IMG/VR virus record: IMGVR_UViG_3300025012_000031
Span: 32,001 to 96,000 of that record
Source: a virus
Direction: 5' to 3' (one strand)
DNA: 64,000 bases
The notes below the pieces were generated by a model, which was not told the DNA's origin, searched no databases, and was given only the letters and a program-made list of their open reading frames with translations. Every line of letters starts with the position of its first letter. Position 1 is the stretch's first letter. Position numbers and translations under genes: made by a program. Positions 3,821 through 54,321 of the stretch are shown here, in pieces.

Positions 3821-5659
3821 TCAGATCATTTTCATGAATGCCTGTTCGTTAAGAATCGTGATGCCGAGCTTTTCGGCTTTGGCTAGTTTACCACCTGCAT
3901 CTTCGCCGACGAGCAGATAATTCAGATTCTTCGAGACGCTTGCAAGTTCGCCGCCATTGGCAACAACCATCTGCTCGAAATGTTTCCGAGGCTTGGAGAG
4001 TGTCCCGGTGATGCAGAACGTTTTCCCAGCGAATTTGTCGCTTGCCTTAGGAGCTTCAACTTTCTTTTCCTCTTTGTAGCGGGGGTCGTCTACGATCTTG
4101 TCAACAATTTCAAGATTTGCTTTCCATGCCACGAAAATTTTGAGGAGGGATTTCTCTCCCATTCCTTCGGGATACGGTCCGCCGATTTCGCCTTCCGTTT
4201 TACAGAGGCCTTGCTTCAGCATGCAGGAACCGTAGAACTCGATGATCTTACCGACGGTGTTCTTGCCGCCACCGTTAAAAGGCATGGCACCCATAAGATC
4301 GGCCTTCGACATCTTGAAGATCGCCTGAAGGTTGTCATAGAACTTTTCAGCCATACGACCTTGACCGTTCGGCGACCAGGTGAGAAGGTCCTCAATGCAA
4401 TTGATTCCCCACTTCTCAAAGGAAGTTCCCGATGCACCCTCAACATTACAGCAGCGGATGAAGTATTCAAGCTGACGCATTCCTTGAGCGGGGCAAGCAT
4501 CGTTGTTACATTTCAGATCGACAGGAACGAGATTCTTATTAACAATATTCCATTCAAGATCTCCACCACAAGACGGACAAACCGACCACGGGGCGCCACC
4601 TTTACCCGGTTCCATCGTCTCAACAATCTTCGGGATAATGTCTCCGCCTTTGGTAACCCGGACGATTGCACCTTCCCAGATGCGGTTGTTGAGAATGTAC
4701 CGCATGTTGTACCCGGTTGCTTTGGCAACCGTCGTACCACAGAGTTCTTGCGGTTCAAGCAAAACGGTCGGTTTCAGCAATCCGCCTTTGGAAATTCTCA
4801 ACCGAAGCCCGGTGACCTTCGTCTGCACGGCCGGGGTATCAACCTTGAAAGCAACCATTCCTTCGGGATGAGTTACATTCTCGGCGCCGTAATTGATATC
4901 GCAAATGACCAACCCATCGATGTCATAAGGAACGACAACCTTGACCGCCTCGAGATGCGCCTTCAGGATTTCTTCCATGTCAGGCGTAATCGAGATGATG
5001 TCGTAATCAGGAATAAGGAATCCGAGCTCCTCTAGTTTGAGCAACTGACCGACCCGGGTGTTCCTTGAACCGAGAATTTGGTAACAGTATGCTTTGACGT
5101 GGGCAAGGCGAGTAGGAATGATCTTTTCTTTCTTGATGATCCCAACCGTGCCATTGCGGCGGTTCTTGTAGCCGAGAACGATGTGGGAATCTCCCGTTAG
5201 GGTAAGTTCACCGCGAACCTCGGTGAGTTCCTCTTTACTATCAATCGTGGCCGGGAGAACAAATCGGCAGGCCTCAGTGATATCTTCACCGGATGTTCCG
5301 TCGCCACGAGTTGCGGCCGACATATAATTACCGAAGGAGTATTTTGCAACGAAGCACATCCCGTCGAGTTTTACTTGGGCGAGAAGTTTGTTGATGTGAA
5401 ACTTGGTAAGGAATTTGGTGAGGGGTTGATCGGCTTCGCCGTACTTGCATTTGCGAAGGGAACCGATGACGTAATCGTGGACGATGTCACCACCGACTTC
5501 CATGAGTTCCTTGATGAAGTCCTCGTATTCCTCATGAGAAATTTCAAGGCGAAGAAGTTCGAGTTCATCGTCATAACGAAGATCGGTGACAGCGGGATTT
5601 CCTTCGCGATATGAACGATTCCACATTTTGATTTTCTTCTTTCTTTCGATGACCGACAT
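3821..5659 (-). CDS. ligA: NAD-dependent DNA ligase
   Basis: KLDG, ATRGDG, EVRGE, DGLVI, AFK, OB fold, CPSC Zn finger, C-terminal BRCT (FCITGTL...KLAKAEKLGI). Confidence 0.95.
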   Translation of the reverse strand: MSVIERKKKIKMWNRSYREGNPAVTDLRYDDELELLRLEISHEEYEDFIKELMEVGGDIVHDYVIGSLRKCKYGEADQPLTKFLTKFHINKLLAQVKLDGMCFVAKYSFGNYMSAATRGDGTSGEDITEACRFVLPATIDSKEELTEVRGELTLTGDSHIVLGYKNRRNGTVGIIKKEKIIPTRLAHVKAYCYQILGSRNTRVGQLLKLEELGFLIPDYDIISITPDMEEILKAHLEAVKVVVPYDIDGLVICDINYGAENVTHPEGMVAFKVDTPAVQTKVTGLRLRISKGGLLKPTVLLEPQELCGTTVAKATGYNMRYILNNRIWEGAIVRVTKGGDIIPKIVETMEPGKGGAPWSVCPSCGGDLEWNIVNKNLVPVDLKCNNDACPAQGMRQLEYFIRCCNVEGASGTSFEKWGINCIEDLLTWSPNGQGRMAEKFYDNLQAIFKMSKADLMGAMPFNGGGKNTVGKIIEFYGSCMLKQGLCKTEGEIGGPYPEGMGEKSLLKIFVAWKANLEIVDKIVDDPRYKEEKKVEAPKASDKFAGKTFCITGTLSKPRKHFEQMVVANGGELASVSKNLNYLLVGEDAGGKLAKAEKLGITILNEQAFMKMI

Positions 5660-16767: not shown

Positions 16768-17142
16768 CGTAAAATCCTTTCTTGTTTTTCTATATTCTAT
16801 TTTCCGCAAAGGCAAGCTTTATTTTAACCTAAACGGAAGAAAATGTCAATAGAAAATTTGTTGGTTGTTAATTATAAATTCTTTGCATGAAGATAATCGA
16901 CGTACTCTTTGTTTTGCTTAAGAGCCTCACCGATAACTCTGATCCTTATAGCCTCATTTTCGGCTCTCCGAATTGACGAATCGGATAACCAATTGACATA
17001 CCACGGAATGCCTCCCAAAAGCATCCACAGCATCAATAATGCTGCTATACACATTGTACATAGACCACCGACTGAATTTACGAATTTTAGCATTCTTGTA
17101 ACCTCCTTAGTTTTATCAATTATTTATTGCACAAGAGAAAAG

Positions 17143-17180
17143 AAAAGGGAAAAGGCGACCCGAAGATCGCCTTTTCCCTG
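17143..17180 (-). terminator. intrinsic terminator
   Basis: GGGAAAAGGCGA-TCTTCGGG-TCGCCTTTTCCC followed by T-rich run. Confidence 0.8.
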
Positions 17181-17202
17181 TGTGATTGTGGTTTGTGTTG
17201 GT

Positions 17203-17958
17203 TTAGCGGGTGGCGGCCACCTGACGAGCAGGGGTCTTCGGCGCGGGGTAAGGCTGCCCCGCGAGCATCCGCTTGCGGACCACGACGCAGGCGCCGCATT
17301 TGCATCCGATCTTGTGGTTGGCAAGGGCTCCCGGAAGGTGGGTTGCCATAAGATCGGCTTCGGTCAAGACCTTTGCCTTCTTGGCACGAGGTTCCTTTGC
17401 CGGTTTGGCGGCCGCGGCAACCTTTTCAACCTTTTCTTTCACGGGTTTAGCAACCTTCGGCTCTTTGTTTTTGTTCGGGCCGGGTTTCACTCGCGGCGTA
17501 ACGCCGTCGGCCTTGTAACCCCAGGGAGCATTGGCATCAGGCGCGCGGTTGCCGACGAGGGGCAACGGACCGGGCTTTTTCTTCGGTTCGTTGTTGAGCT
17601 TGAGACCGTGGGGAGCCTTCATCAAGCGGGGCGCCTTTTCGGGAGCTTCCTTGCCGCGTTCCTTGGCGAGGAGTTCGTCCTGCTTGTGTTTGGTGTCGGC
17701 GGTCAGGCCGGCTTTCGTCAGTTCGATGAGCGGCTTGGCGAAGCCCAGTGCGATGTGGGTGTGGATGCCGTCAAGGAAAATTTTGCATTCGGCGCGGTTG
17801 CGAAGATCGTCTTTCAAGGTGCGGATCGGTTTCGTACCGCGGAGCAGCTGAACCATCCAATGCCCCTTTTCGATCGGGCTAACCGCAATGGACTGTCCTT
17901 TGCCCATCAGTTTGGAAATAATCTCCGCTTCAGCAATCAAAATTTCTTTCTTAATCAT
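17203..17958 (-). CDS. Lys/Ala/Pro-rich basic protein with C-terminal HxxxCxCxxC
   Basis: Histone H1-like composition, GC-rich codons, three tandem promoters upstream. Confidence 0.75.
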   Translation of the reverse strand: MIKKEILIAEAEIISKLMGKGQSIAVSPIEKGHWMVQLLRGTKPIRTLKDDLRNRAECKIFLDGIHTHIALGFAKPLIELTKAGLTADTKHKQDELLAKERGKEAPEKAPRLMKAPHGLKLNNEPKKKPGPLPLVGNRAPDANAPWGYKADGVTPRVKPGPNKNKEPKVAKPVKEKVEKVAAAAKPAKEPRAKKAKVLTEADLMATHLPGALANHKIGCKCGACVVVRKRMLAGQPYPAPKTPARQVAATR

Positions 17959-18034
17959 GGCCTAGCTCCTTTCGTTTGTTGGTTCGTTGGAATGTTCAAT
18001 ACCGCCCAGCGCGGATGAATCATTTTTTGTTAAT

Positions 18035-18270
18035 CTTGATTATATTGTATACTATGTTTTTACAAGTCAAACAACTTTTTTCCAAATAATCATTTTTTTA
18101 TTTTGTGCCGTTGAATCATCGTGTTGATTATATTGTATATAGCTTTTTGAGAATGTCAATCATTTTTTTCTAAATAATCATTTTTTATTTTCTTTAACAA
18201 TCTTTTTTTAATTTTTCCTTTTTAATCATTGTGTAATTATAATTTAACATAGGCTGGTTGTATGTCAATA
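18035..18270 (-). promoter_or_regulatory. three tandem sigma70 promoters with AT-rich UP elements
   Basis: TTGACA/TTGACA/TTGACT followed by TATAAT/TACAAT boxes; repeated AAAAAATGATTATTT upstream. Confidence 0.75.
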
Positions 18271-18291
18271 GGAAAAAGTAAATAAATTAGA

Positions 18292-18328
18292 AAAAAAAAT
18301 GCCCGAGCATTTCTGCCCGAGCATTTTA
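18292..18328 (-). terminator. intrinsic terminator
   Basis: ATGCTCGGGCA-GAAA-TGCTCGGGCAT with GU pairs, then poly-T. Confidence 0.75.
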
Positions 18329-18349
18329 AAGGGAAAGTATTTGAATTTG

Positions 18350-18688
18350 TTAGGTATTCACAGGCGCGGTCCACAGCTGAAAATTCTTGAACCTGTTCCG
18401 ATTCTTTCCATAAAGCGGTTGGGTTGCAAGTGCTGTGTAGCCGAGGTCATAATCGGGTTCGAAGAAAATGTGGGACTTGATGCCGTCTTCCTTCAATTGT
18501 TCGTGGATTCGGATCAACTCTTTTTCCCCCGACACACCCAGAAGAACCATATGAGCGGTCCTTGTCGGCTTTTCCTCGTCGGTCAAACGCAGGCCGAGTT
18601 CAAAGTTAGCGTGAGCCGCCTGGATAATGGAAGCAGCTTGGCTGAGGTCTTCACGTAGGAAGCAATATGTATAAGGAATATTACGCAT
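18350..18688 (-). CDS. peptidyl-tRNA hydrolase 2 (PTH2)-like protein
   Basis: YCFLREDL...IQAAHA, MVLLGV, FFEPD...TALATQP pattern. Confidence 0.7.
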   Translation of the reverse strand: MRNIPYTYCFLREDLSQAASIIQAAHANFELGLRLTDEEKPTRTAHMVLLGVSGEKELIRIHEQLKEDGIKSHIFFEPDYDLGYTALATQPLYGKNRNRFKNFQLWTAPVNT

Positions 18689-19070
18689 TTGCCACCGCCG
18701 CATGGCACCCGAAATGTTCTTCAGGATTGGTAGGGATTGTAAGAGACTGAAACTCTTCAAAGGTAAGACTCCCTCCAAAGGGTTTGAGCATGTTTTCGGC
18801 GATCCATTTGTGCGTCTGCGCATATTCAATGTTCCTCATTGCTTCGTTGGCTGCGTGATATGGGGAAGACTTGCCTTGTGATCGCATTTTAATGAGATTC
18901 GTGGCAGGACAAAAACACTTCGTCCAATCTTGCCCCTTGAACATTTTATAGAGAACAAAATGTTCAACCGTTAATCTGTGTTTCATTTCGGAATTCGTTG
19001 CCGTTTTCCATGAACCGATGAAATTTTCATACTGTGATTTATCTTGAAAGAAAAATTTGTTTTCGCTCAT
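18681..19070 (-). CDS. hypothetical protein coupled to PTH2-like gene
   Basis: AAGGAG RBS; 8-nt overlap. Confidence 0.7.
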   Translation of the reverse strand: MSENKFFFQDKSQYENFIGSWKTATNSEMKHRLTVEHFVLYKMFKGQDWTKCFCPATNLIKMRSQGKSSPYHAANEAMRNIEYAQTHKWIAENMLKPFGGSLTFEEFQSLTIPTNPEEHFGCHAAVANA

Positions 19071-19143
19071 AGCTTATCTCCTTGGGTTTACTTAATAGTG
19101 GTAGTTTATAGAAAAAATCAAACGGGCCAATAAAGTAAACTTG

Positions 19144-19191
19144 TCAAGGCGGGTTGCTATAAGGATTCACCTAGAGATTGCGCATAGTCAT
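19144..19191 (-). promoter_or_regulatory. putative leader ORF with in-frame amber codon: MTMRNL-UAG-VNPYSNPP-UGA
   Basis: AAAGGA RBS 6 nt upstream of ATG; TAG at 19171-19173. Confidence 0.5.
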
Positions 19192-19421
19192 TCACCGTCC
19201 TTTCTTTTTGGAATATTATTTATTCATACCCACGATGAATTCCATCACCACGTTCGGATTCAGATGTCCACGCGTTTCTTTCATAATAATACAACAGAAA
19301 TCGTGTGGTGACATTGATGACCATGTTTCTTGGTAATCATTTCTAATGTTCATCATAGCAACAAACATTTCATGATATGTTGAAATTTGGTTGAATGCGC
19401 CGTTCGTCATATTATTTCCTT

Positions 19422-19496
19422 TGGTGCCCGGTATGGGAATCGAACCCATCTTGCCGGATTTAGAGTCCGGTGGCTCAACCGATCACCCAACCGGGC
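19422..19496 (-). tRNA. amber suppressor tRNA (anticodon CUA)
   Basis: 7-bp acceptor GCCCGGT/ACCGGGC, CCGGA-CTCTAAA-TCCGG, GGTTCGATTCC, encoded CCA. Confidence 0.92.
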
Positions 19497-19504
19497 AGAA
19501 GGAA

Positions 19505-19768
19505 TTAATCAATTTCCATCCAGACGAATCCCTGCCAATAAAATTTCTTCCCGGCGACTTTATAGAATACCGCCATCGAATCTGCATTGGAGTAAATGAT
19601 CTTGGCATTGGGCACAACCTTATAATCCGTCATACCCGGACCGACAAGATGCAGCGTACCTTCTTCGTTCGAGAGGCTCTCATAATTTTCTTGATCGTAG
19701 GTTCGTTCGATCGTACCGCAACCGGAAATTGCGAGGGCCATTAGTGCGACGATGATTAACTTTCTCAT
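19505..19768 (-). CDS. lipoprotein
   Basis: Lipobox-like ISGC after hydrophobic leader. Confidence 0.65.
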   Translation of the reverse strand: MRKLIIVALMALAISGCGTIERTYDQENYESLSNEEGTLHLVGPGMTDYKVVPNAKIIYSNADSMAVFYKVAGKKFYWQGFVWMEID

Positions 19769-20079
19769 TAGCGCACCACCGATCCGCGGTTGGCATAGGC
19801 CGAACCCTTACCGTTGAGCCACTTGCTTGCCTGGCGCCGAGTAACTTTGACACCGGCAACTTCACATGCCGATTGGAACTGACCGTTTGTCTCAAAGAAC
19901 TTCTTTACGGTGATCTTGTGCGGACTCACGCGCTCTGCACCGGTGTGATACGAATTAACGCGTTCCCATTTGTTTCCACCGATGAGGCGGGCTTCGTTTG
20001 CCATCTGTTGATCTCCTTCTGTGTTGGGTTATTTGATTCTTGTATTATACAAGGATGAAGCACGAATGTCAATGTTTAT

Positions 20080-20472
20080 TTAATCTTCCCAGAGAAATTC
20101 GACATTGGGATATTTGGCGAGGACGCGGATTCCGTCTTTGATGATCGCCTCATAGATGCCGTATTTATTTGCCAATCCGCCGCCGAGGCGAGAGATGAGG
20201 AACGTCTTATCGGGTTCCGCAATAATTCTTGCGGTGATCTTTGATAATTCGCGCCCAAAAACCGCTTCGTAATTTTCTGGCCGATAATAAGCACGGTCAT
20301 CATGGGTTGGGAGAATCTTCGTTATGAATCCGATAGCCTGTTTATGGAACCGAAGGATTGCTGCACCACCACATCCTTTGCGGATGGTATTGTCTCCGAA
20401 GACAAAGTAACACTCCGGATTTTCGTCAAGATATTCCTTATCAATTTCTCTTTCCTGACTGGGTGTTGACAT
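20080..20472 (-). CDS. macro-domain-like phage protein
   Basis: FVFGDNTIRKGCGGAA and SRLGGGLA loops. Confidence 0.55.
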   Translation of the reverse strand: MSTPSQEREIDKEYLDENPECYFVFGDNTIRKGCGGAAILRFHKQAIGFITKILPTHDDRAYYRPENYEAVFGRELSKITARIIAEPDKTFLISRLGGGLANKYGIYEAIIKDGIRVLAKYPNVEFLWED

Positions 20473-20531
20473 CGCTTAATCCTTTTGAATTTGTATTGGG
20501 TGCTCTGACCACCCAAATCGTTGTCTGCTAA

Positions 20532-21257
20532 TTAAAGCAGGCTGTTTATAAGAATCCGATTCTTATGCGATTCTGATATTTTCTTCTTTGTTTCAACAGA
20601 GTGTGTTTTTCCTTTATGTGATTGGCTATTTTTCTGACAAAAATCTACCGAACGTTTTATACCTCTTAATGGTGATATTTGTCCCATAAGAGAATTACTA
20701 ATTTTTTCTCTTTGTTCATCGGAACAAGGAACCCCCTTGTTGTAACCACCCGTTAGCGATCCACCTCTTTTAGCGCCGATAATCAATGAATCGGTTCGTA
20801 AACGACCAAGAACCCATCCTTCCGACAAAAGTTTTTCCATTTCTATTCCTTTTGTCATACAAGAATTATTTCCATCATTTAACCAACGGCGATCTTTAGA
20901 TGCATCAGAACATTTTTGTCGTTTCTGATCTTTGCATGGTATTCGTCTAACGTGATTATTATCACCAAGCAATCGTTCCTTTATATATTTTTCTCTAACC
21001 CATTTATATGATCTGCTATTATACTTTCCAAATGATGTCATCATAAGTGCTGCATGTAACATTCCACCACCGTAGATCTTGGCTAATAAAAGATGACATA
21101 TTAAATGTTCTCTGAGAAACAGTTTTACGAGATTTTCTTTTTTATTAGACCCACCTAAGCTTCTTGGAACTATATGATGTATCTCACACATTTCCTGTTG
21201 TGTTGCTCTTTGTTTTGCATTAAGTATAATGTTATCATAAGCTTGTTGATAATTCAT
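20532..21257 (-). mobile_element. free-standing HNH homing endonuclease with NUMOD3 repeats
   Basis: EIHHIVPRSLGGSNKKENLV...EHLICH; HSVETKKKISESH; late promoter. Confidence 0.9.
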
Positions 21258-21316
21258 AATTTTAACTCCCACTTTATTTTTATTTATAAAGTGGGAGTTA
21301 AAATTGGTGCAGCGTG

Positions 21317-21433
21317 TTATCCGATCAAAGATAACATCCCGCAAGCAGCACCGGCTGCAATTTCGGCGTCGGTTGCCACGGCGAGGGCGAAATCAAAACC
21401 AGCTTCTTCCAATTGTTCCTGAATTGCTTCCAT
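21317..21433 (-). CDS. 38-aa peptide resembling RlmN/Cfr C-terminal methyl-carrier segment (not in ORF track)
   Basis: AAGGAGG RBS; MEAIQEQLEEAGFDFALAVATDAEIAAGAACGMLSLIG; AACGML versus RlmN AACGQL. Confidence 0.8.
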   Translation of the reverse strand: MEAIQEQLEEAGFDFALAVATDAEIAAGAACGMLSLIG

Positions 21434-42781: not shown

Positions 42782-43288
42782 TTACCAAACACCCAACCTC
42801 ACTAATTCCGCTTCAAGATTTGAAACATTACCCCTGAACACTGAAAGGAATGATGGCATTTTCGGTGTTGTACGAAGTTTCATTTTTGCTTGTGTTGGTG
42901 TTCTATTATCTTTCTTGTTGTTGCAACTAAAGCAGGCTAATACTGTGTTCTCCCATGTTGATTTACCACCTTGTGCTCGTGGGATAATATGGTCAACAGT
43001 AACGTCCTGTCCTTGTAAATCTGACTTGCCGCAGTACTGACATGTATGATCATCTCGTAATGCAACACCCCTTTTTGTCCAAGGAACCTTTGTTTTTGAT
43101 TTTCGGAAAGTTTTAATGATTGTAAGTAAACGAATAACTTTTGGTAAGAAGAAGTTCTTCGCAAGTTGTACATTCGTGTTGACTAGAACCTCGGCTTTGT
43201 CAAGGAAAACAAGACGAACCGCCTCTTTCCAATGAATCTCATTTAGCGGATTCATATCAGCATTTAATACGATGACTGGCTCAAACAT
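42782..43288 (-). CDS. HNH endonuclease (McrA-like)
   Basis: VLNAD..PL, RDDHTCQYCG, TVDHIIPRAQGGKSTWEN...C..CN. Confidence 0.92.
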   Translation of the reverse strand: MFEPVIVLNADMNPLNEIHWKEAVRLVFLDKAEVLVNTNVQLAKNFFLPKVIRLLTIIKTFRKSKTKVPWTKRGVALRDDHTCQYCGKSDLQGQDVTVDHIIPRAQGGKSTWENTVLACFSCNNKKDNRTPTQAKMKLRTTPKMPSFLSVFRGNVSNLEAELVRLGVW

Positions 43289-43349
43289 AATATCTTCCTT
43301 CCGTTGTTTACTCTATTTATTCATTTTAATTCCTCCTGATATTATTCAG

Positions 43350-54247: not shown

Positions 54248-54321
54248 TGGTGCGGTGGACAGGAGTCGAACCTGCATCTTCCGCTCTTATGCGGCTGATC
54301 TACCAATTTATCTACACCGCG
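54248..54321 (-). tRNA. tRNA-like RNA with 6-nt anticodon loop
   Basis: CCGC-ATAAGA-GCGG; canonical T arm; CCA. Confidence 0.65.

What the first reader, a model, noticed from the sequence alone, without database searches (positions are those of the whole stretch)
18350..19496. Amber suppressor tRNA, amber-containing leader peptide and PTH2-like gene in one operon
Seen: an intact CUA tRNA sits apart from the main array. About 230 nt downstream, a mini-ORF with RBS reads MTMRNL-UAG-VNPYSNPP-UGA, followed by a 129-aa ORF coupled to a peptidyl-tRNA hydrolase-like gene. Known: Pro-Pro-stop impairs termination and minigenes cause peptidyl-tRNA drop-off. The window is not TAG-recoded. Inference: a circuit in which readthrough of the leader reports suppressor or RF1 activity and controls a ribosome-rescue factor. 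The amino acid carried is unclear (G1-C72, A73, short variable loop).
Basis: partly seen in the sequence, partly recalled or inferred. Interest (0 to 1): 0.78.

Follow-up and report, generated by a model that had tools for sequence, protein, structure and literature searches.

The report
Stop-readthrough-gated leader before phage Pth2 operon
A 155-kb phage that uses the normal genetic code carries its own UAG-reading tRNA and, just downstream, a tiny leader gene whose UAG must apparently be read through before a ribosome reaches a Pro-Pro-stop and uncovers the ribosome-binding site of two small genes (an unknown protein and a peptidyl-tRNA-hydrolase-like enzyme); eleven diverged phage lineages keep this design, which would give such unexplained phage suppressor tRNAs a concrete target.

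Summary
An intact tRNA(CUA), an SD-preceded mini-ORF MTMRNL-UAG-VNPYSNPP-UGA, a 129-aa ORF and an overlapping Pth2-fold gene lie in one minus-strand unit between a consensus promoter and a terminator.

Upstream of homologous orf129/Pth2-like pairs in 11 diverged phage lineages there is the same leader: SD, ATG, 1-8 codons, gate stop, Val/Ile, 5-12 codons, Pro-Pro. Chance is 0-0.6% per locus. The gate is TAG where the phage tRNA is CUA and TAA in the two loci whose linked tRNA is UUA. RNA at or just after the Pro-Pro codons pairs with the SD/AUG of the next gene (p<=0.017 in 8 of 10 loci; 0.003 here).

In 16 distinct sequences from other phages the Pth2-like gene itself starts ATG, 1-4 codons, TAG. 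All 13 of their genomes that I searched encode a tRNA(CUA). The window's copy has lost that TAG.

The genome is not TAG-recoded.

Best reading: a readthrough-sensing, arrest-type translational attenuator.

Nothing is experimental. The amino acid carried and the enzyme's substrate are unknown.

This scan has noted the same design before on other DNA. I found no publication describing it.

The parts
20044..20072 (-). Sigma-70-type promoter (TTGACA, 17 nt, TATAAT) heading the transcription unit
   Evidence: 12 of 12 consensus match. No terminator-like site on this strand between it and 18327.
19768..20004 (-). 78-aa ORF, first gene of the unit, function unknown
   Evidence: Called as a gene in identical metagenome copies.
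19505..19768 (-). 87-aa ORF with a lipoprotein-like N-terminus
   Evidence: Weak match to a PHROG Cor-like family, E 0.002.
19422..19496 (-). tRNA with anticodon CUA (amber suppressor), CCA encoded
   Evidence: ARAGORN. Rfam tRNA 56.2 bits. Regular cloverleaf. Only CUA tRNA in the genome.
19216..19410 (-).
   Evidence: Called as a gene in metagenome copies. No family match.
19144..19191 (-). Leader mini-ORF MTMRNL-UAG-VNPYSNPP-UGA. Gate codon TAG at 19173-19171, Pro-Pro codons at 19152-19147, stop TGA at 19146-19144. SD AAAGGA just upstream.
   Evidence: Same motif in 10 other lineages. Chance 6/1000 here.
19134..19164 (-). Anti-SD / anti-AUG strand: CCUUAUAGC, CCUUG (overlapping Pro-Pro-stop) and GUUUACU
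   Evidence: RNAduplex gives -20.4 kcal/mol against -11.3 +/- 2.5 for shuffles, p = 0.003. Same pairs appear in the MFE fold.
19066..19091 (-). Translation initiation region of the 129-aa ORF (AGUAAAC, SD cAAGGAG, AUG) that pairs with the leader strand
18681..19070 (-). 129-aa ORF, member of an uncharacterised family that is the conserved upstream partner of Pth2-like genes
   Evidence: 97 relatives. No Pfam or PDB match. Sits next to a Pth2-like gene in L083, L084, L086, L087, L088, L094, L124, L126, L127.
18350..18688 (-). Pth2-fold gene (112 aa). Its ATG overlaps the stop of the 129-aa ORF (ATGCGTAA). It has no TAG of its own.
   Evidence: AF2 pLDDT 93.9. Foldseek top 14 hits are all Pth2, TM 0.65-0.76. 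Profile against PDB 2zv3 E 3e-5. Pfam PTH2 matched in 10 of 12 relatives.
18296..18327 (-). Intrinsic terminator (14-bp stem followed by a T run) ending the unit

Best explanation
The unit is a translational attenuator whose input is stop-codon readthrough.

Without readthrough, ribosomes start on the leader and stop at UAG (codon 7). A helix between the leader's distal part and the SD/AUG of the 129-aa ORF then stays closed.

When the phage's own tRNA(CUA), encoded about 230 nt upstream in the same transcript, decodes the UAG, the ribosome runs eight codons further. It is held at Pro-Pro-UGA, since a C-terminal proline is a poor substrate for termination. Its footprint covers CCUUG and the neighbouring strands and frees the SD. 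The 129-aa ORF is then translated, and the Pth2-like gene follows by stop/start overlap.

The two proteins would thus be made in proportion to suppressor activity (charged tRNA against RF1).

Shown: the parts, their order, their conservation, the match between gate codon and anticodon, the predicted pairing, and the Pth2 fold.

Inferred: that the tRNA is charged and reads UAG, that the ribosome stalls, that the SD becomes exposed, and what the proteins do. My guess is that they hydrolyse peptidyl- or aminoacyl-tRNA by-products of suppression, or the suppressor's own ester as negative feedback.
For: - The leader motif (SD, ATG, 1-8 codons, gate, Val/Ile, 5-12 codons, Pro-Pro) lies upstream of the orf129-family gene in WIN, L083, L084, L086, L087, L088, L094, L124, L125, L126 and L127. 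Their Pth2-like proteins are only 30-47% identical to the window's. Shuffles give the motif in 0-6 of 1000 per locus.
- The Pro-Pro codons vary at the third position (CCG CCT, CCT CCG, CCA CCC, CCA CCG, CCG CCG). This points to selection on the peptide.
- Gate and anticodon go together. The gate is TAG with tRNA(CUA) in WIN, L124, and the genomes of L083, L084, L088 and L096. The gate is TAA with tRNA(UUA) in L086 and L126.
- Where a stop follows Pro-Pro directly, it is never the gate codon. It is TGA or TAA after TAG gates, and TAG after the TAA gate of L086.
- Pairing of the post-gate leader with the SD/AUG of the next gene has p<=0.017 in 8 of 10 loci, using different sequences in each. In the window it is -20.4 against -11.3 +/- 2.5 kcal/mol.
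- In L083, L087 and L094 the read-through frame ends in a TGA that overlaps the ATG of the next gene.
- There is an independent link between Pth2-like genes and suppressor tRNAs. Sixteen distinct stand-alone homologues (19 of the sequences read, counting repeats of one phage) start ATG, 1-4 codons, TAG, then a purine, each behind an SD. All 13 of their genomes that I searched encode a tRNA(CUA).
- Arrest at RAPP/RGPP and at Pro-stop is established (PMC10951233, PMC10987492). L087 carries RAPP and L127 carries RGPP.
Against: - There is no experiment of any kind. Expression, charging and identity of the tRNA are unknown.
- The window's arrest motif is SNPP-stop, not the studied RAPP/RGPP.
- The fold of the whole 166-nt intergenic RNA is not more stable than shuffles (z = -0.26). 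The evidence for the helix is the local duplex and its recurrence.
- Two loci have weak pairing (p 0.06-0.08).
- All copies of this particular phage are identical, so there is no within-lineage covariation.
- TAG ends about 11% of the phage's own genes (27 of 239 crude genes). A strong suppressor would therefore have a cost.
- The leader's first 19 nt resemble the 5' end of the Pth2-like gene, which could mean it is partly a duplicate.
Confidence: 0.68

Rival explanations
1. The mini-ORF is a dead relic. It would be a duplicated or displaced 5' end of an ancestral, amber-bearing Pth2-like gene with no present function. The Pth2-like gene is simply co-translated with the 129-aa ORF.
For: ATGCGCAAT[CTCTAGGTG]AATCCTTATA in the leader matches ATGCGTAAT-ATTCCTTATA at the gene start in 17 of 19 positions once a 9-nt gap is allowed. 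Many homologues carry TAG at codons 3-6 of the gene itself, and the window's gene has AAT where L084 has TAG.
Against: The 129-aa ORF is a conserved neighbour and not an insertion. Leaders with gate, Pro-Pro and anti-SD pairing are kept in ten other lineages, including some whose Pth2-like gene also has its own TAG (L083, L084).
Confidence: 0.1
2. The leader is an ordinary upstream ORF that always ends at UAG. The tRNA(CUA) serves other targets, such as C-terminal extensions of phage or host proteins, and its proximity to the operon reflects only the clustering of translation genes.
For: Pth2-like genes often lie in or near tRNA arrays. XacN1-type phages have CUA tRNAs, but their fused HD-like/Pth2-like gene has no TAG.
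Against: The ATG, the gate and Pro-Pro lie in one frame in 11 of 11 lineages. The gate switches to TAA exactly where the tRNA is UUA. The terminal stop is never the gate codon. The XacN1 authors found no extension targets behind 18 TAG stops (PMC5852040).
Confidence: 0.12
3. The mini-ORF is a chance open frame in an intergenic spacer. Pro-Pro-TGA exists only because a TTGACA hexamer lies there.
For: The TGA sits inside ccTTGACAag. Short ATG..stop frames are common.
Against: No -10 element follows at 16-18 nt, and the scan reports no promoter there. The motif appears in 6 of 1000 shuffles here and is present in ten other lineages.
Confidence: 0.03
4. The phage reassigns TAG to an amino acid in part of its genome, as in code-15-like late genes, and the tRNA serves that purpose.
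For: It carries a suppressor tRNA, as recoded phages do.
Against: Removing TAG as a stop lengthens ORFs least of the three stops. Only 1 TAG is flanked by two open stretches of at least 80 codons, against 20 for TAA and 7 for TGA. Coding density is 86% under code 11.
Confidence: 0.02

Closest known systems
[quoted passage not shown]
   Same: Both have a short SD-preceded upstream ORF, a proline-rich C-terminal motif (RAPP in L087, RGPP in L127, SNPP-stop here), and an SD-hiding helix placed within the footprint of the arrested ribosome.
   Different: Here the arrest site lies behind an in-frame stop codon, so it is reached only by readthrough. The input is the activity of a dedicated suppressor tRNA, not secretion, an antibiotic or a metabolite. 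There is no N-terminal localisation signal. The leader is only 15 codons long. Arrest has not been shown.
prfB (RF2) autoregulation through an in-frame UGA
   Same: An early in-frame stop codon serves as a sensor of the balance between termination and continuation, and this sets the output of translation-factor genes.
   Different: prfB continues by a +1 frameshift within the gene itself. Here the stop is decoded in frame by a tRNA, in a separate leader or at codons 3-6 of the Pth2-like gene in relatives. The sensed factor is a phage tRNA (against RF1).
Stop-codon-recoded phages with suppressor tRNAs (TAG read as Gln, 'code 15'; bioRxiv 10.1101/2021.08.26.457843)
   Same: A phage-encoded tRNA(CUA) is used to make translation of certain phage genes depend on that tRNA.
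   Different: The recoded phages have hundreds of in-frame TAGs in late genes. Here the genome uses the standard code and the gate sits at a single regulatory position.
Archaeal/eukaryotic peptidyl-tRNA hydrolase Pth2 (PF01981; PDB 3erj, 2zv3, 1xty, 1q7s)
   Same: Same fold (TM 0.65-0.76). Shared N-terminal strand plus the R-x-D motif and the Q..HA helix.
   Different: Sequence identity is 14-23%. The window protein falls below the Pfam threshold. It forms a distinct phage subfamily that is tied to suppressor tRNAs and, in some phages, fused to an HD-like domain. The substrate is untested.

Membership tests
Pth2 peptidyl-tRNA hydrolase (PF01981) | Pth2 alpha/beta fold | tested here: met
   AF2 with a 15-sequence alignment gives pLDDT 93.9 and pTM 0.86. 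The top 14 Foldseek PDB hits are 13 Pth2/Bit1-type structures plus one Pth2-like protein of unknown function (2gax), E 3e-5 to 1e-3, TM 0.65-0.76.
Pth2 peptidyl-tRNA hydrolase (PF01981) | Sequence match at Pfam's gathering score | tested here: not met
   The window protein scores 19.8 bits against a cut-off of 23. Ten of 12 relatives match at E<0.01 (best 1e-7). The family profile hits PDB 2zv3 at E 3e-5.
Pth2 peptidyl-tRNA hydrolase (PF01981) | Hydrolysis of the peptidyl-tRNA ester; catalytic residues in place | not testable with these tools
   Invariant Y8, R12, D14, Q23, H26, A27, E77, T85 and R97 are compatible with an active site, but I did not map them onto the catalytic residues of solved Pth2.
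Amber suppressor tRNA | Regular cloverleaf with anticodon CUA in a 7-nt loop | tested here: met
Amber suppressor tRNA | Aminoacylated and decodes UAG in vivo | not testable with these tools
   Identity is unclear: G1-C72, A73, class I. The acceptor stem GCCCGGU/ACCGGGC, from memory, resembles E. coli tRNA-Phe. No close relative exists among the phage's own tRNAs.
Arrest-peptide / SD-sequestering leader attenuators | Short SD-preceded ORF directly upstream of the regulated gene, conserved in relatives | tested here: met
Arrest-peptide / SD-sequestering leader attenuators | Known arrest motif at the stall site | tested here: inconclusive
   Pro-Pro is invariant in 11 lineages. L087 has RAPP and L127 has RGPP. 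The window has SNPP-stop, which resembles but does not equal the studied NSP-stop and NAP-stop.
Arrest-peptide / SD-sequestering leader attenuators | Helix hiding the SD of the downstream gene, overlapped by the stalled ribosome | tested here: met
   The duplex starts between -14 and +8 nt from the Pro-Pro codons. p<=0.017 in 8 of 10 loci, and 0.003 in the window.
Arrest-peptide / SD-sequestering leader attenuators | Ribosome stalling and arrest-dependent induction shown | not testable with these tools
   Needs toeprinting and reporter assays.
Stop-codon-recoded (code 15) phages | Many in-frame TAGs inside conserved genes | tested here: not met

The most novel reading that the evidence does not exclude
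The cassette is a self-contained homeostat for stop-codon readthrough. The phage's suppressor tRNA is the key that opens the leader. The proteins then made (orf129 family plus the Pth2-like enzyme) act back on the suppressor. They might hydrolyse its aminoacyl or peptidyl ester, or clear the peptidyl-tRNAs that readthrough creates. Suppression would then be held at a set level in a host that uses UAG as a stop. This would be a natural regulatory circuit built around a nonsense suppressor. It would explain the orphan CUA and UUA tRNAs of many cultured standard-code phages (XacN1, RsoM2USA, CBB, GAP32, ME3, Arash).
Probability: 0.22. Interest if true: 0.92.

Novelty: new variant of a known kind. 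Interest (0 to 1): 0.8.

Why it matters
Suppressor tRNAs in phages that use the standard code have had no known target. The XacN1 authors read through 18 TAG stops in silico and found nothing (PMC5852040). Here a specific and conserved target appears: a leader and/or the first codons of a Pth2-like gene.

If the mechanism holds, it is a natural sensor of whether stop-codon readthrough is working. It combines three known elements in a new way: an in-frame stop as sensor, a proline arrest, and SD unmasking. It also ties an archaeal-type peptidyl-tRNA hydrolase to nonsense suppression.

It bears on three practical matters. Phages may tune host translation this way. Annotation pipelines mis-call these genes: the gene is unannotated or truncated in RsoM2USA, CBB, GAP32, Serratia BF, the Erwinia SNUABM phages and Arash. 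And it may offer compact parts for synthetic readthrough-dependent switches.

Tried and rejected
- Close relatives for covariation. Megablast of the region against phage records found nothing. The six metagenome copies fetched for the same protein (of 16 contigs that carry it) are 99.9-100% identical over the operon, so they give no information.
- Insertion idea. At first I read the mini-ORF as a relic left when the 129-aa ORF was inserted into an amber-bearing Pth2-like gene. I dropped this as the main reading when the 129-aa family proved to be a conserved upstream partner with its own conserved leader.
- Intron or bypass joining the leader to the gene. No Rfam intron match in 17000-21000.
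- Internal promoter at the TTGACA inside Pro-Pro-TGA. There is no -10 element.
- Other amber-gated genes in this genome. Only two SD-ATG-x-TAG starts sit before long open frames, no more than for TGA. One precedes an HNH gene that has its own SD and ATG.
- tRNA identity. Comparison with the phage's other tRNAs and with phage records gave no clear relative.
- Single-sequence AF2 model. It was poor (pLDDT 54) and I replaced it with the alignment-based model.
- HD-like partner of jumbo-phage Pth2-like genes. It is not found in this genome.
- Function of the 129-aa family. No Pfam, PDB or Atlas lead.
- The 12-member profile was too diverse for the search for related loci. A 4-member subset worked.

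Full report
**What is in the window**

The window is bases 32001-96000 of a single 155,098-bp virus record with 41% G+C. It holds 36 tRNA genes, all on the minus strand.

The finding lies in one minus-strand unit, in this order:
- A perfect TTGACA-17-TATAAT promoter at 20072-20044.
- A 78-aa ORF and an 87-aa ORF.
- The tRNA(CUA) at 19496-19422. It scores 56.2 bits against Rfam tRNA, has a regular cloverleaf and an encoded CCA.
- The mini-ORF at 19191-19144, preceded by AAAGGA. It reads MTMRNL-UAG-VNPYSNPP-UGA.
- The 129-aa ORF at 19070-18681.
- The Pth2-like gene at 18688-18350, overlapping the 129-aa ORF's stop in ATGCGTAA.
- A terminator at 18327-18296.

The genome is not TAG-recoded.
- Dropping TAG as a stop lengthens ORFs least of the three stops.
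- TAG-interrupted long frames are rarer than TAA- or TGA-interrupted ones.
- A crude gene set covers 86% of the genome, with stops TAA 151, TGA 61 and TAG 27.

**The enzyme**

The window protein matches Pfam PTH2 only below threshold (19.8 bits against 23). Other evidence is stronger.
- Ten of 12 relatives match PTH2 (best E about 1e-7).
- A family profile hits the solved Pth2 structure 2zv3 at E 3e-5.
- An AlphaFold model built on 15 homologues has pLDDT 93.9.
- The top 14 Foldseek hits are 13 Pth2/Bit1-type structures plus one Pth2-like protein of unknown function (2gax), with TM 0.65-0.76.

It is a distant member of the Pth2 fold. Its substrate is untested.

**Relatives of the Pth2-like gene**

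tblastn finds homologues (28-41% identity) in 28 phage records, nearly all tRNA-rich jumbo phages.

Every stand-alone homologue I read in these records starts behind an SD with ATG, one or two codons, and an in-frame TAG followed by a purine. The conserved domain follows directly. Examples:
- RsoM2USA ML*
- ME3 MT*
- CBB and GAP32 MAQ*
- Arash ML*
- LR756511 MTH*
- XbC2 and Kaldavass MAH*
- Serratia BF and pEa_SNUABM_19 MTH*
- fHe-Yen9-03 MSH*

In CBB there is no start codon between the TAG and 27 residues into the domain. The annotated records therefore miss or truncate the gene.

IMG/VR contigs add six more distinct TAG-bearing forms, as well as forms without a TAG. One further locus there (L090) is ME3 again.

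All 13 TAG-bearing genomes that I searched hold a tRNA(CUA).

Fused forms have no TAG. XacN1, Stenotrophomonas CM1 and Xoo-sp13 have an HD-like N-terminal domain fused to the Pth2-like domain, and they still carry CUA tRNAs.

The window's gene starts MRNIPYTYCF, where the related L084 has MS*IPYMYIF. It has lost the gate in the gene itself.

**The leader**

I first took the mini-ORF for a relic, because its DNA resembles the 5' end of the gene (17 of 19 positions after a 9-nt gap). Notes from this scan mentioned leaders that carry UAG. In addition, tblastn showed a homologue of the 129-aa ORF directly upstream of the Pth2-like gene in L084.

The 129-aa protein belongs to an uncharacterised family with 97 relatives and no Pfam or PDB match. 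This family is the regular upstream neighbour of Pth2-like genes in L083, L084, L086, L087, L088, L094, L124, L126 and L127.

In front of it, every lineage examined has an SD-preceded mini-ORF of the same design:
- WIN: MTMRNL*VNPYSNPP-TGA
- L083: MKRVKKA*VAGFT*VRARDPP..
- L084: MIQPVKRG*IRPFT*VCRPRIPP-TAA
- L087: MKKL*ILSARAPP..
- L088: MFQSSM*VPFANGPP..
- L094: MAL*VLIRNVGPP..
- L124: MTH*VLLGKKIHPP-TGA
- L125: MKLAYDPTE*VLLARPP-TAA
- L127: MM*VDFNIRGPP-TGA
- L126: ML[TAA]VNRNKGPP..
- L086: MIKVTDN[TAA]VPSLHDPP-TAG

A strict version of the motif occurs in 0-6 of 1000 dinucleotide shuffles of each upstream region.

Three further regularities argue for function.
- The gate matches the phage's suppressor. 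It is TAG where the tRNA is CUA. It is TAA in exactly the two loci whose linked tRNA is UUA (L086 at 4770-4845, L126 at 2274-2345).
- When a stop follows Pro-Pro directly, it is never the gate codon.
- The Pro-Pro codons differ at third positions. This fits selection on the peptide and not on one RNA word.

**RNA switch**

In each locus I paired the stretch between the gate and the next gene's initiation region with that region, using RNAduplex and 1000 shuffles.

The best duplex always covers the SD and/or the AUG. It starts between 14 nt before and 8 nt after the Pro-Pro codons. It uses different sequences in different loci. It is stronger than shuffles at p<=0.017 in 8 of 10 loci, and at 0.06-0.08 in the other two.

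In the window three pairings form:
- CCUUAUAGC with GCUAUGAG (the start codon)
- CCUUG (inside Pro-Pro-UGA) with CAAGG (the SD)
- GUUUACU with AGUAAAC

Together these give -20.4 kcal/mol against -11.3 +/- 2.5 for shuffles (p = 0.003).

The whole 166-nt spacer is not unusually stable (z = -0.26). The case therefore rests on the local helix and its recurrence.

In L083, L087 and L094 the read-through frame runs on and ends in a TGA that overlaps the ATG of the next gene. This is a second route to the same coupling.

**How it most likely works**

A ribosome that terminates at the UAG leaves the helix closed. A ribosome that reads through, thanks to the tRNA(CUA), is held at Pro-Pro (here with UGA in the A site). 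It melts the helix, and the 129-aa ORF and the overlapping Pth2-like gene are then translated.

Arrest at RAPP/RGPP, and at Pro-stop with the stop in the A site, is established for bacterial leaders (PMC10951233, PMC10987492). L087 and L127 carry exact RAPP and RGPP. The window's SNPP-stop is a variant that has not been tested.

Why a Pth2-like enzyme should depend on suppression is inference. It may be damage control for peptidyl-tRNA made by readthrough. Or it may be negative feedback on the suppressor.

**Comparison and novelty**

The nearest known systems are:
- arrest-peptide attenuators (SecM, ErmCL, ApdA/ApdP)
- prfB's in-frame UGA sensor
- TAG-recoded phages

None of these uses readthrough by a dedicated suppressor tRNA as the input of a leader.

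I found no paper that combines Pth2, a suppressor tRNA and phage. The XacN1 paper states that no target of its CUA tRNAs could be found. The Iyer et al. survey notes PTH2 in jumbo phages but not the amber codon.

This scan has reported the same design on other genomes many times. My evidence was gathered independently on this window and agrees with those notes.

**Verdict**

Noticed in passing
window 19157-19185 vs 18670-18688 (- strand): The leader's start ATGCGCAAT..AATCCTTATA resembles the start of the Pth2-like gene, ATGCGTAATATTCCTTATA, in 17 of 19 positions once 9 nt including the TAG are removed. This could reflect a duplication or gene conversion between the leader and the gene's 5' end, or shared constraints.
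   Followed up: partly
window 43288-43330 (- strand): AGGAGG, 7 nt, then ATG AAT AAA TAG A lies in frame with and just upstream of an HNH endonuclease gene (42782-43288). That gene has its own SD and ATG. It looks like a second amber minigene but is at chance level, since TGA controls are as frequent.
   Followed up: partly
window 20532-21344 (- strand): The HNH/NUMOD3 endonuclease gene is present in the window and in metagenome copies L006 and L008. It is absent from the otherwise identical copies L009 and L011. This is a presence/absence polymorphism of a mobile endonuclease.
   Followed up: no
window 18040-18268 (- strand): Three tandem sigma-70-like promoters, each in a repeated AT-rich unit, lie upstream of the 251-aa ORF at 17958-17203.
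   Followed up: no
L002:3306-3869, L005:3311-3847, L004:2482-3321: In jumbo phages the Pth2-like gene is followed by, and overlaps, a conserved HD-like protein (weak Pfam HD match). In XacN1, Stenotrophomonas CM1 and Xoo-sp13 the two are fused into one protein with no TAG. The HD-like protein is not found in the window's genome.
   Followed up: partly
L052:1470-3044 (Xanthomonas phage XacN1): Two tandem tRNA(CUA) genes lie about 1 kb upstream of a phage-encoded tmRNA gene, on the same strand.
   Followed up: no
L127:1428-1498: A tRNA-like sequence with a CUA anticodon loop and an odd D arm sits directly before the leader. ARAGORN does not call it, and it gets only 26.7 bits against an Rfam tRNA-clan model.
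   Followed up: partly
window 54248-54320 (- strand): ARAGORN calls a tRNA with an aberrant two-base anticodon (aa) next to tRNA-Glu. Several other tRNAs of the array look degenerate.
   Followed up: no
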